Shown: one piece after another, positions 13,401 through 16,400 of the stretch
Numbering within the stretch: the first letter of the stretch is position 1
How the letters are laid out: each line of letters begins with the position of its first letter
Assembly (NCBI RefSeq): GCF_013315695.1
Contig: NZ_CP054353.1
Source of the DNA: Escherichia coli
GTDB lineage: Bacteria; Pseudomonadota; Gammaproteobacteria; Enterobacterales; Enterobacteriaceae
Direction: 5' to 3' (one strand)
DNA: 64,000 nt
Program-made: the position numbers

Positions 13401-16400
13401 TTTACCGCTATCAGCTACGGCAAACTGGTTCGCCAGTTTCCGGAAGCCGGTTCGGCCTATACCTACGCGCAAAAGTCGATTAACCCGCACGTCGGATTTA
13501 TGGTCGGCTGGTCATCGCTGCTGGATTATCTCTTTTTGCCGATGATCAACGTCTTGTTGGCGAAAATCTATCTCTCCGCCCTCTTCCCGGAAGTGCCGCC
13601 GTGGGTGTGGGTGGTAACCTTCGTCGCCATTTTAACCGCCGCGAATCTGAAGAGCGTCAACCTGGTTGCTAACTTCAATACCCTGTTTGTGTTGGTGCAA
13701 ATCTCCATCATGGTGGTGTTTATCTTCCTGGTGGTTCAGGGACTGCATAAAGGAGAAGGCGTTGGCACCGTCTGGTCACTTCAGCCGTTTATCAGCGAGA
13801 ATGCGCACCTGATCCCGATTATTACCGGGGCGACGATTGTCTGTTTCTCCTTCCTCGGTTTCGATGCGGTGACCACGCTTTCGGAAGAGACGCCGGACGC
13901 CGCACGCGTGATCCCGAAAGCCATCTTCCTGACGGCGGTATACGGCGGCGTTATCTTTATCGCTGCGTCGTTCTTTATGCAGCTGTTCTTTCCTGATATC
14001 AGCCGCTTTAAAGACCCGGACGCCGCACTGCCTGAAATTGCGCTGTACGTCGGCGGCAAGCTCTTCCAGTCGATTTTCCTCTGCACCACGTTTGTGAACA
14101 CGTTAGCGTCTGGCCTGGCGTCGCATGCCAGCGTGTCGCGTCTGCTGTATGTGATGGGGCGTGACAATGTGTTTCCGGAGCGCGTGTTTGGCTATGTGCA
14201 CCCAAAATGGCGGACTCCGGCACTGAACGTCATTATGGTCGGGATTGTCGCGTTGTCGGCGCTTTTCTTTGATTTAGTCACCGCGACAGCATTGATTAAC
14301 TTCGGTGCTCTGGTGGCGTTTACCTTCGTGAATCTGTCGGTGTTTAATCATTTCTGGCGGCGCAAAGGAATGAATAAAAGCTGGAAGGATCACTTCCACT
14401 ATTTGCTGATGCCGCTGGTTGGCGCGCTGACGGTGGGTGTGCTGTGGGTTAACCTTGAGTCAACGTCACTGACACTCGGTCTGGTATGGGCTTCGTTAGG
14501 CGGCGCATATTTGTGGTATCTGATCCGCCGCTATCGCAAAGTGCCGTTGTATGATGGTGACAGAACGCCGTTGAGCGAAACGTAATAGTCGGATGCGCGG
14601 CGCATTATCCTGCCTGAGGGTAATGCACCGCGCCATTAACTATAAAAAGATGTATGACCCGGATCACGAGTGCTATCATCCGCCCTTATGCTTAGCGCAT
14701 TAACCCCAGGGGCAAATAATGAACCACGATATCCCGCTAAAATATTTTGATATTGCCGATGAGTACGCGACCGAATGCGCAGAGCCTGTCGCCGACGCTG
14801 AACGCACACCGCTGGCCCTCTACTTCCAATTACTGCTCACCCGTTTGATGAACAATGAAGAAATCAGCGAAGAAGCCCAACATGAAATGGCTGCTGAAGC
14901 GGGGATTAATCCCGTACGCATTGATGAGATCGCAGAGTTTTTGAATCAATGGGGTAATGAGTAATTATTTCATTGCAGACGATCGGTCAGTATCATTGTC
15001 CGGATAAAGCGTTCACGCCGCATCCGGCTAACAATGACACGCACTGCAGTGTGCCTCAATGGGTTTCTCACGATCGTACCGCTCTGCTCCTCGCTAAGTT
15101 GTTCTGTGAGTTATAGTTATAGAGAAATCACGGGTACGAATGTTGAACAGATGGCGACGCCACCTGTTCAACGACCAACCACACGGCCCTCATTACGACC
15201 CCTGAACACAAACGGTAATGGCAAATGTCATTAAATATTAGTAAGATAGCCTCTTTACATAAAATCCATTAATATTATGCGCCAGGTATTATCGTCTCTT
15301 TTGGTGATTGCTGGACTTGTGAGTGGTCAGGCAATCGCCGCGCCTGAATCCCCCCCGCATGCTGATATCCGCGACAGCGGTTTTGTCTATTGCGTCAGCG
15401 GGCAAGTCAACACCTTTAACCCATCCAAAGCGAGCAGTGGGTTAATTGTCGATACCCTTGCCGCCCAGTTTTATGATCGACTGCTGGATGTCGCCCCCTA
15501 TACCTATCGCCTGATGCCGGAACTTGCCGAAAGCTGGGAAGTACTCGACAACGGCGCGACCTATCGCTTCCACCTGCGTCGCGATGTTCCGTTTCAAAAA
15601 ACCGACTGGTTTACTCCCACTCGTAAAATGAATGCCGACGATGTGGTGTTTACCTTCCAGCGAATTTTTGACCGCAACAACCCGTGGCATAACGTTAATG
15701 GCAGCAACTTCCCCTATTTCGACAGCCTGCAATTTGCCGATAACGTGAAAAGCGTCCGCAAACTGGATAATCATACCGTTGAGTTCCGTCTGGCTCAGCC
15801 GGATGCTTCTTTTTTGTGGCACCTCGCGACCCATTATGCTTCGGTCATGTCGGCAGAATATGCAGGGAAGTTAGAGAAAGAAGATCGCCAGGAGCAACTC
15901 GACCGTCAACCGGTCGGTACCGGTCCGTATCAGTTGTCGGAATACCGCGCCGGGCAATATATTCGCTTACAACGTCATGATGATTTCTGGCGTGGTAAGC
16001 CGTTGATGCCACAAGTGGTGGTGGATTTAGGCTCTGGCGGTACAGGACGATTGTCGAAACTCCTGACCGGGGAGTGCGACGTCCTGGCCTGGCCTGCCGC
16101 CAGTCAGCTATCCATTTTGCGTGACGACCCACGCTTGCGTTTAACGCTGCGTCCAGGGATGAATGTCGCCTATCTGGCATTTAACACCGCTAAACCGCCG
16201 CTAAATAATCCCGCTGTCCGCCATGCGCTGGCACTGGCGATTAATAACCAGCGCCTGATGCAATCCATCTATTATGGTACGGCTGAAACGGCGGCCTCTA
16301 TTTTACCGCGCGCCTCGTGGGCCTATGACAACGAGGCTAAAATTACTGAATACAATCCGGCAAAATCGCGCGAACAGTTGAAGGCGTTGGGGCTGGAAAA

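What the first reader, a model, noticed from the sequence alone, without database searches (positions are those of the whole stretch)
15141..15173. Long inverted repeat in the sapA 5' leader
tgttgaacagatgg-cgacg-ccacctgttcaacg can form a stem of about 12 bp roughly 105 nt upstream of the sapA start, just downstream of a REP unit. It could be an RNA structural element or a protein-binding palindrome controlling the sap operon.
Basis: seen in the sequence. Interest (0 to 1): 0.3.

Follow-up and report, generated by a model that had tools for sequence, protein, structure and literature searches.

The report
Young, variable palindrome upstream of sapA
The inverted repeat upstream of sapA is real and lies in the leader of a weak distal sapA promoter, but it is specific to E. 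coli, varies between strains and is not conserved in relatives, so it is probably an ordinary by-product of mutation and not a regulator of the sap operon.

Summary
The arms are 15142-15156 and 15158-15172, 15 nt each around one central base, with 14 of 15 positions complementary. It is one of five such repeats in 64 kb, where about 0.2 are expected by chance.

Two published TSS maps place a weak distal sapA start at window 15124/15129. The repeat therefore sits at about +14 to +49 of that leader and in ymjA read-through RNA. It lies upstream of the conserved proximal start at about 15254.

- The repeat is single-copy, has no Rfam match, and has no U-tract.
- Only 744 of 5422 E. coli records carry the perfect form.
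- Four common SNPs fall within its 31 bp.
- In other Escherichia lineages the right arm drifts without compensation; E. whittamii does not fold at all.
- Citrobacter has no palindrome, and other genera have a different spacer.
- Variable sites are 2/15 in the left arm against 11/15 in the right (p = 0.0025), so a symmetric constraint is unlikely.
- Sigma-54 and PuuR readings were tested and not met.

Best reading: a young quasipalindrome, plausibly shaped by template switching, with at most a minor effect on long-leader transcripts. Interest is low.

The parts
14719..14964 (+). ymjA coding sequence (upstream gene). Its promoter reads through into sapA.
   Evidence: ORF; annotated ymjA; b1295|b1294 transcripts.
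15000..15027 (.). REP-like hairpin (CCGGATAAAGCGT / ACGCCGCATCCGG) after ymjA. It is the most polymorphic part of the spacer.
   Evidence: Inverted repeat I3; sub-threshold naRNA4 (REP-derived) hit; SNP density.
15112..15123 (+). Two overlapping -10-like boxes, TATAGT (15112-15117) and TATAGA (15118-15123), inside the tandem GTTATAGTTATAG. Inferred core of the weak distal sapA promoter P2.
   Evidence: Position relative to the two mapped TSSs. The box assignment is my inference from the sequence.
15124..15129 (+). Distal sapA transcription starts: 15124 (Yan 2018) and 15129 (Kim 2012, 2 reads).
   Evidence: converted using sapA ATG = 1357110 (.3) / 1355134 (.2). Kim's flanking sequence ends ...GAGAAATC at 15129.
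15133..15153 (+). Block conserved across Escherichia and Citrobacter (GGTAYGAATnTTGAMCAG...). It contains the left arm. Function unexplained.
   Evidence: Alignments; no SNP at 15125-15141 and only one in the left arm.
15142..15156 (.). Left arm of the palindrome, GTTGAACAGATGGCG.
   Evidence: 2 of 15 sites variable across Escherichia.
15158..15172 (.). Right arm of the palindrome, CGCCACCTGTTCAAC. This is the fast-evolving arm.
   Evidence: 11 of 15 sites variable across Escherichia and E. coli alleles; common SNPs at 15160, 15163, 15172.
15155..15214 (+). C-rich, G-poor tract (42-45% C, 12-15% G) in the untranslated leader, rut-like in composition.
   Evidence: A link to Rho is inference only.
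15216..15233 (.). Conserved small inverted repeat TAATGGC-AAAT-GTCATTA overlapping the -35 of the proximal promoter.
   Evidence: Nearly invariant in Escherichia and Citrobacter; predicted hairpin.
15219..15254 (+). Proximal sapA promoter P1: -35 TGGCAA (15219-15224), 17-nt spacer, -10 TAAGAT (15242-15247), TSS about 15254 (23-nt leader).
   Evidence: TSS 1357133. Hexamers inferred from the sequence. The block is conserved across genera, and the -10 region also in Salmonella-type spacers. One common SNP in 58 bp.
15277..16920 (+). sapA coding sequence.

Best explanation
The repeat is a young quasipalindrome specific to E. coli. It sits in the transcribed, untranslated spacer between ymjA and sapA.

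When RNA is made from the weak distal sapA promoter (starts at 15124/15129) or by read-through from ymjA, the repeat folds into a 13-15-bp hairpin at about +14 to +49. This hairpin has no U-tract, so it does not terminate transcription. The conserved proximal promoter (start about 15254) lies downstream and makes sapA mRNA without the repeat.

The left arm belongs to a block conserved for some other, unknown reason. The right arm is nearly free to change. Within the E. coli lineage it has come to complement the left arm, plausibly by replication template switching at an imperfect inverted repeat.

The palindrome as such is not under detectable selection and is not a conserved regulator of the sap operon. 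Any effect it has, for example on the stability or processing of the long-leader transcripts, is minor and differs between alleles.

Shown: existence, significance, single copy, position relative to mapped TSSs, lack of conservation and covariation, polymorphism, asymmetry between arms.
Inferred: template-switch origin and near-neutrality.
For: - Real and non-random.
- Single copy per E. coli genome.
- TSSs at 15124, 15129 and ~15254, plus ymjA read-through.
- No terminator-like site, no sigma-70 consensus hit and no Rfam family.
- Allele counts among 5422 records: CGTC type 1713, window type 1662, YP3 type 1045, perfect 744.
- Hairpin energy ranges from -23.3 to -12.0 kcal/mol among E. coli alleles, and from -6.4 to -12.8 in other Escherichia. 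The E. whittamii sequence does not fold better than shuffles (z -0.43).
- Four common SNPs in the 31 bp, against none in the 17 bp upstream and one in the 58-bp P1 block.
- Variable sites: 2/15 in the left arm, 11/15 in the right, Fisher p = 0.0025.
- No consensus structure across Escherichia and Citrobacter. The Citrobacter stem shows no covariation above shuffles.
- Salmonella and other genera have a different spacer without the repeat.
- Template switching that makes quasipalindromes more perfect is an established E. coli mutational mechanism (PMC7202029). It has been proposed to explain natural inverted repeats in MG1655 (PMC5941160).
Against: - All four main E. coli alleles still fold clearly better than shuffles, so some hairpin persists species-wide.
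- On the + strand, two of the four SNPs are G-C to G.U and one creates a pair. That is what weak selection on a + strand RNA stem would also give.
- The order of right-arm changes could not be resolved, because Citrobacter is too diverged there. Loss in other lineages, as opposed to gain in E. coli, is not excluded.
- The perfect allele seems to have a single origin: the K-12 and O157 haplotypes differ only in a REP patch. There is therefore no direct sign of recurrent 'correction'.
- No experiment here measures function.
Confidence: 0.6

Rival explanations
1. It is a functional, E. coli-specific RNA hairpin in the long sapA leader. It would tune the fate of distal-promoter and ymjA read-through transcripts, for example as a barrier to exonucleases, an RNase III site, a pause signal, or a modulator of Rho loading on the C-rich tract that follows.
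For: - The hairpin lies inside mapped transcripts.
- It forms in the MFE and centroid folds of the whole leader.
- All common alleles fold better than shuffles.
- Two SNPs are G.U-compatible on the + strand.
- A C-rich, G-poor tract follows it.
Against: - Stability varies two-fold among common alleles.
- One common allele has two internal mismatches.
- There is no covariation or conservation beyond E. coli.
- The distal promoter is weak: 2 reads, against 94 for ymjA.
- The conserved proximal promoter bypasses the hairpin.
- No 3' end or RNase III data were found for the site.
Confidence: 0.2
2. It is a DNA operator for a dimeric transcription factor that sits between the distal and proximal sapA promoters. 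It would act as a roadblock for P2 and read-through transcription, or as an upstream site for P1.
For: - The symmetry is nearly continuous, with 15-bp arms and one central base, and is perfect in K-12. That is more typical of protein sites than of RNA hairpins.
- It lies at +14..+49 of P2 and about -112..-82 of P1.
Against: - The half-sites are conserved very unequally (2/15 against 11/15 variable).
- Only 14% of genomes have the perfect site.
- There is no second copy in E. coli genomes.
- No paper in the searchable library reports a factor binding here.
- The PuuR motif, verified on the puuA-puuD region of this same window, does not match.
Confidence: 0.08
3. It marks the 3' end of ymjA transcripts, as a terminator or a 3'-end-stabilising hairpin.
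For: - It lies about 180 nt after the ymjA stop on the same strand.
- The stem is GC-containing and stable.
Against: - No T/U run follows the stem on either strand.
- ymjA-sapA and ymjA-sapA-sapB read-through transcripts are observed.
- No termination site in this spacer appeared in the supplements that could be searched.
- A REP hairpin closer to ymjA is the more usual 3' stabiliser.
Confidence: 0.07
4. The conserved left-arm block is an alternative-sigma promoter (sigma-54-like GGTACG-N4-TTGA), and the palindrome is incidental to it.
For: - GG and TTG are spaced as in TGGCACG-N4-TTGCW (consensus from my own knowledge).
- The block is conserved in Citrobacter.
- pspF, a sigma-54 activator gene, lies nearby. 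It is separated from ymjA only by a gene fragment in strain YP3.
Against: - The near-invariant C at -12 is A in all sequences.
- sapA and ymjA are absent from the 135 sigma-54 ChIP-seq sites and from the RpoN gSELEX paper.
- No TSS near 15158 appears in either map.
Confidence: 0.02

Closest known systems
Quasipalindromes as template-switch mutation sites in E. coli (Ripley model; thyA hotspot; Lovett-lab lacZ reporters; PMC7202029)
   Same: - It is an imperfect inverted repeat with a very short spacer.
- One natural allele (K-12 type) differs from the commonest types by a change that makes the repeat perfect.
- Changes are concentrated in one arm, including clustered dinucleotide changes in strain N96.
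   Different: - No mutation-rate measurement exists for this site.
- The perfect allele appears to have arisen once.
- Most segregating changes weaken pairing instead of improving it.
Overabundant perfect short inverted repeats of E. coli MG1655 (Lavi et al. 2018, PMC5941160)
   Same: In K-12 it is a perfect intergenic inverted repeat with 15-nt arms. The same template-switch model is invoked to explain such repeats.
   Different: That study reports that most examined repeats are more conserved than expected. This one is not conserved even within the genus. I could not check whether it is in their list.
Rho-independent terminators
   Same: A stable stem with G+C-rich inner pairs, downstream of a gene on the same strand.
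   Different: No U-tract; read-through transcripts are seen; the pattern scan does not call it.
REP / BIME intergenic hairpins
   Same: An intergenic hairpin in a transcribed spacer, close to a true REP-like unit.
   Different: Single copy in every genome, with no family and no REP consensus.
5'-leader stem-loops that stabilise mRNA (for example the ompA leader; from my own knowledge)
   Same: A stem-loop near the 5' end of a long leader.
   Different: It starts 13-18 nt from the 5' end instead of at the end. It is not conserved, and it is absent from the main short-leader transcript.

Membership tests
Rho-independent terminator | Run of T/U immediately 3' of the stem | tested here: not met
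   After the stem the + strand reads GACCAACCACAC and the - strand ATTCGTACCCGTG. The terminator scan found 0 sites in 14900-15350.
Rho-independent terminator | Transcripts end at the element | tested here: not met
   ymjA-sapA(-sapB) read-through operons are listed, and no termination site in the spacer appeared in the searchable supplements. Those files were truncated, so absence is weak evidence.
REP/BIME repeat family | Many dispersed copies per genome | tested here: not met
   One locus per genome in 5421 of 5426 E. coli genomes. In the searches that report a second place per genome (median 2 only, with the perfect K-12 allele), I take it to be the palindrome matching its own reverse strand; this is an inference, not checked.
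Conserved cis-regulatory leader RNA (riboswitch, attenuator, thermometer) | Match to a curated RNA family | tested here: not met
   No Rfam hit over the repeat, even at E <= 10.
Conserved cis-regulatory leader RNA (riboswitch, attenuator, thermometer) | Structure kept across species through compensatory changes | tested here: not met
   RNAalifold predicts 0 pairs for the region and leaves it unpaired in the whole-leader consensus. The Citrobacter stem does not exceed shuffles. Right-arm changes in other Escherichia are uncompensated.
Operator of a dimeric transcription factor | Both half-sites similarly constrained | tested here: not met
   Variable sites are 2/15 (left) against 11/15 (right), Fisher p = 0.0025.
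Operator of a dimeric transcription factor | Demonstrated protein binding | not testable with these tools
   No report was found in the searchable literature.
PuuR operator | Match to the 15-bp PuuR recognition sequence AAAATATAATGAACA | tested here: not met
   The motif hits 11249-11435 three times with 0-2 mismatches, but does not hit the palindrome at <=3 mismatches. The best register by eye has 6 mismatches.
Sigma-54 promoter | GG at -24 and GC at -12 with fixed spacing | tested here: not met
   GG is present, but -12 reads GA in all Escherichia and Citrobacter sequences.
Sigma-54 promoter | Sigma-54 occupancy in vivo or in vitro | tested here: not met
   sapA and ymjA are absent from the main-text tables of the ChIP-seq and gSELEX studies. 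Those studies do not claim to be complete.
Quasipalindrome / template-switch site | Imperfect inverted repeat able to form an intrastrand DNA hairpin | tested here: met
   ssDNA folds of -7.4 to -15.7 kcal/mol for the E. coli alleles, z -3.1 to -8.2.
Quasipalindrome / template-switch site | Mutations that raise complementarity, often clustered, templated by the other arm | tested here: inconclusive
   The K-12 allele perfects the repeat. Right-arm complementarity is 8/15, 10/15, 12/15, 14/15 and 15/15 across lineages. However, the direction of change is unresolved, and three of four common SNPs lower or merely keep pairing.
Quasipalindrome / template-switch site | Raised mutation rate, dependent on replication or exonuclease background | not testable with these tools
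   Needs reversion assays.

The most novel reading that the evidence does not exclude
The repeat is a palindrome caught in the act of forming. A constrained left arm would serve as the template from which the right arm has been repeatedly rewritten by template switching during E. coli divergence. The resulting hairpin, together with the C-rich tract after it, would give E. coli an allele-dependent, lineage-specific attenuation of ymjA/P2 read-through into the putrescine-exporter operon sapABCDF.
Probability: 0.12. Interest if true: 0.4.

Novelty: new member of a known kind. Interest (0 to 1): 0.15.

Why it matters
As a regulator of sapABCDF it matters little. The element is dispensable across close relatives, and the conserved proximal promoter bypasses it.

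Its modest value is as a clean natural example of how a striking, statistically significant palindrome in a mapped 5' leader can still be evolutionarily unconstrained. It may also be a natural case of quasipalindrome evolution, with four common alleles available for testing.

The work also points to better candidates for sapA control: the conserved repeat over the proximal -35, and the conserved block that includes the left arm.

Tried and rejected
- **Dispersed repeat or REP family:** rejected, single copy.
- **Rfam family:** none.
- **Intrinsic terminator:** no T-run and no scan hit.
- **Conserved RNA structure:** no consensus and no covariation.
- **Small protein-coding ORF across the repeat (15151-15234, or 15034-15234):** broken by stop codons in a major E. 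coli allele and in L005.
- **Sigma-54 promoter:** -12 GC missing, and absent from the ChIP-seq and gSELEX lists.
- **PuuR operator:** motif validated on the neighbouring puu control region, but absent here.
- **Sigma-32-like and sigma-70 readings of TTGAAC as a -35:** considered by eye and dropped. There is no acceptable -10, it is not conserved in Citrobacter, and no TSS is present.
- **Shimada 2014 predicted promoter ATGACA-15-TTTAAT (window 15034-15060):** a sequence prediction inside a SELEX peak. Its -10 is CTCAAT in this window, the region is poorly conserved, and no mapped TSS supports it.
- **Progressive gain of complementarity along the phylogeny:** could not be polarised, because the Citrobacter outgroup agrees with E. 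coli at some right-arm sites and with E. whittamii/L005 at others.
- **Recurrent origin of the perfect allele:** the K-12 and O157 haplotypes differ only in a REP patch, so a single origin is simpler.
- **Searches that returned nothing usable:** Cappable-seq and 3'-end-mapping supplements, the Rend-seq and RNase III supplements (not held), and Thomason 2015 (not held).

Full report
**Setting**

The window is E. coli. Around the finding lie puuP (13146-14585), ymjA (14719-14964) and sapA (15277-16920), all on the + strand. They are annotated as such in complete genomes and in MG1655, where sapA's ATG is at 1357110 on the reverse strand. The 312-bp ymjA-sapA spacer is present in 5421 of 5426 complete E. 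coli genomes at 93-100% identity.

**The observation**

The inverted repeat is real and longer than reported.
- The arms are 15142-15156 and 15158-15172, 15 nt each, around a single central base, with 14/15 positions complementary.
- The + strand RNA folds at -18.6 kcal/mol (z -6.3).
- On the - strand the A.C mismatch becomes G.U, giving -22.7 kcal/mol.
- As ssDNA it folds at -11.9 kcal/mol.
- Only five repeats of this quality occur in the 64-kb window, against 0.2 expected from dinucleotide shuffles.
- It is single-copy in E. coli, so it does not belong to a dispersed repeat family.
- It matches no Rfam family, and no terminator or sigma-70 consensus.

**Is it in a leader?**

Three sources bear on this.
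- SMRT-Cappable-seq (Yan 2018, PMC6131387) uses NC_000913.3 coordinates and 5'-triphosphate-enriched full-length reads. It lists sapA-containing operons starting at 1357133 and 1357263, and ymjA-sapA read-through operons starting at 1357699/1357701.
- Kim 2012 (PMC3415461) independently lists a sapA TSS with a 148-nt UTR. Its flanking sequence ends ...GTTATAGTTATAGAGAAATC.
- Shimada 2014 predicted a different promoter further upstream, from sequence inside an RpoD SELEX peak. No mapped TSS supports it.

Converted to window coordinates, these give:

| Start | Window position | Notes |
|---|---|---|
| Distal (P2) | 15124 and 15129 | behind two overlapping -10-like boxes in the tandem GTTATAGTTATAG; weak (2 reads against 94 for ymjA in Kim 2012) |
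| Proximal (P1) | about 15254 | behind TGGCAA-17-TAAGAT |

The repeat therefore sits at about +14 to +49 of the distal leader and inside ymjA read-through RNA. It lies upstream of the proximal start.

**Conservation across species**

sapA loci were fetched from 80 species.
- Salmonella, Enterobacter, Klebsiella and most other genera have a different, shorter spacer with no such repeat.
- Only Escherichia and a set of Citrobacter share the ymjA-type spacer.
- Across these two genera the P1 block is almost invariant. A block GGTAYGAATnTTGAMCAG, which includes the left arm, is also conserved.
- The right arm is not conserved. Its complementarity to the left arm is 15/15 in K-12, 14/15 in this window, 12/15 in a metagenomic Escherichia (L194), 10/15 in L005, 8/15 in E. 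whittamii, and about 4/15 in Citrobacter.
- No compensating change occurs in the left arm.
- Hairpin energies fall from -23.3 to between -6.4 and -12.8 kcal/mol outside E. coli. The E. whittamii sequence folds no better than shuffles (z -0.43).
- RNAalifold predicts no pairs for the region. It leaves the region unpaired in a whole-leader consensus of only -6.9 kcal/mol.
- A short CGCGA/TCGCG stem seen in Citrobacter shows no covariation above shuffles.

**Variation within E. coli**

Exact-match counts of the 43-nt core in 5422 records:

| Allele | Records |
|---|---|
| CGTC type | 1713 |
| Window type | 1662 |
| YP3 type (two internal mismatches) | 1045 |
| Perfect, K-12 type | 744 |

- Together these cover 95% of records, and 86% of records are imperfect.
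- Metagenome contigs show the same four alleles.
- In an alignment of 45 E. coli sequences, the 31-bp repeat carries four common SNPs (15149 A/T, 15160 C/T, 15163 C/T, 15172 C/T). The 17 bp upstream carry none, and the 58-bp P1 block carries one.
- Only the T allele at 15163 improves pairing.
- Counting all Escherichia variants, 2 of 15 left-arm sites vary against 11 of 15 right-arm sites (Fisher p = 0.0025).
- A rare allele in strain N96 has two dinucleotide changes, again in the right arm.

This asymmetry is not what a symmetric constraint would give, whether an RNA stem or a dimeric operator.

**Other readings tested**

- An ORF across the repeat is broken by stop codons in a major allele.
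- A sigma-54 reading of the conserved block lacks the -12 GC. It is also absent from the sigma-54 ChIP-seq and gSELEX lists.
- The PuuR motif is recovered three times in the puuA-puuD control region of this window (11249-11435). It does not match the repeat.
- No paper in the searchable library reports a factor binding here.
- No RNase III or 3'-end data were obtainable.

**Interpretation**

The most economical account is a young quasipalindrome. The left arm is held constant by an overlapping, still unexplained element. The right arm is free to change, and in the E. coli lineage it has come to mirror the left arm.

Template switching at imperfect inverted repeats is an established E. coli mechanism that produces exactly this kind of change (PMC7202029). 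It has been proposed for natural MG1655 repeats (PMC5941160). This origin is inferred, not shown:
- The direction of change could not be settled, because Citrobacter is too diverged in the right arm.
- The perfect allele looks like a single origin.

A modest, allele-dependent effect of the RNA hairpin on long-leader transcripts cannot be excluded. All common alleles still fold better than chance, and a C-rich, G-poor tract follows the repeat.

**Verdict**

This is a new instance of a known kind of sequence feature, and it is of low interest.

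Noticed in passing
window 15216-15233: An imperfect inverted repeat, TAATGGC-AAAT-GTCATTA, overlaps the -35 of the proximal sapA promoter. 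It is almost invariant across Escherichia and Citrobacter. That makes it a better candidate than the reported palindrome for an operator or leader element controlling sapA.
   Followed up: partly
window 15133-15153: The block GGTAYGAATnTTGAMCAG is conserved between Escherichia and Citrobacter and carries no SNP in E. coli apart from 15149. Its function is unexplained. The whole-leader consensus pairs GGTAYGA with sapA codons 8-10 (TCRTCT), with a single C-G to U-A covariation between genera. That is too little evidence to trust.
   Followed up: partly
window 15110-15122; L002 about 1650-1670: The tandem hexamer GTTATA occurs twice here and supplies two overlapping -10-like boxes matching the two distal TSSs 5 nt apart. 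Strain YP3 carries a third copy, so there is a 6-bp indel polymorphism inside a promoter.
   Followed up: partly
window 15155-15214: A C-rich, G-poor tract (42-45% C, 12-15% G) in an untranslated leader, rut-like in composition. It might support Rho-dependent attenuation of read-through and distal transcripts.
   Followed up: no
window 11249-11435 (- strand): Three clustered matches (0, 1 and 2 mismatches) to the PuuR recognition sequence AAAATATAATGAACA. This is presumably the puuA-puuD control region.
   Followed up: no
window 36575-36600, 51811-51845, 55053-55087, 57002-57030: The other four strong inverted repeats of the window. Two are flanked by A/T runs (AAAGCCACGG...CCGTGGCTTT and AAAGCACCTC...GAGGTGCTTT) and look like bidirectional terminators.
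   Followed up: no
window 15017-15044 (REP region); L001 against L204: The K-12-like and O157 haplotypes are identical across the spacer except for a patch of six differences inside the REP-like element. This suggests patchwise conversion or turnover of the REP unit.
   Followed up: no
L002 (strain YP3) 1-1505: In this strain pspF is followed by a truncated hypothetical-gene fragment and then ymjA. No puuP or puuA is annotated between pspF and ymjA in the 3.3-kb stretch shown, so puuP at least is missing from its usual place next to ymjA. Whether the rest of the puu cluster is present elsewhere in the genome was not checked.
   Followed up: no
L206 (strain N96) about 473-485: A rare allele with two dinucleotide substitutions (CG to AA and TT to AA) confined to the right arm. 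It is either a complex mutation or an assembly error.
   Followed up: no
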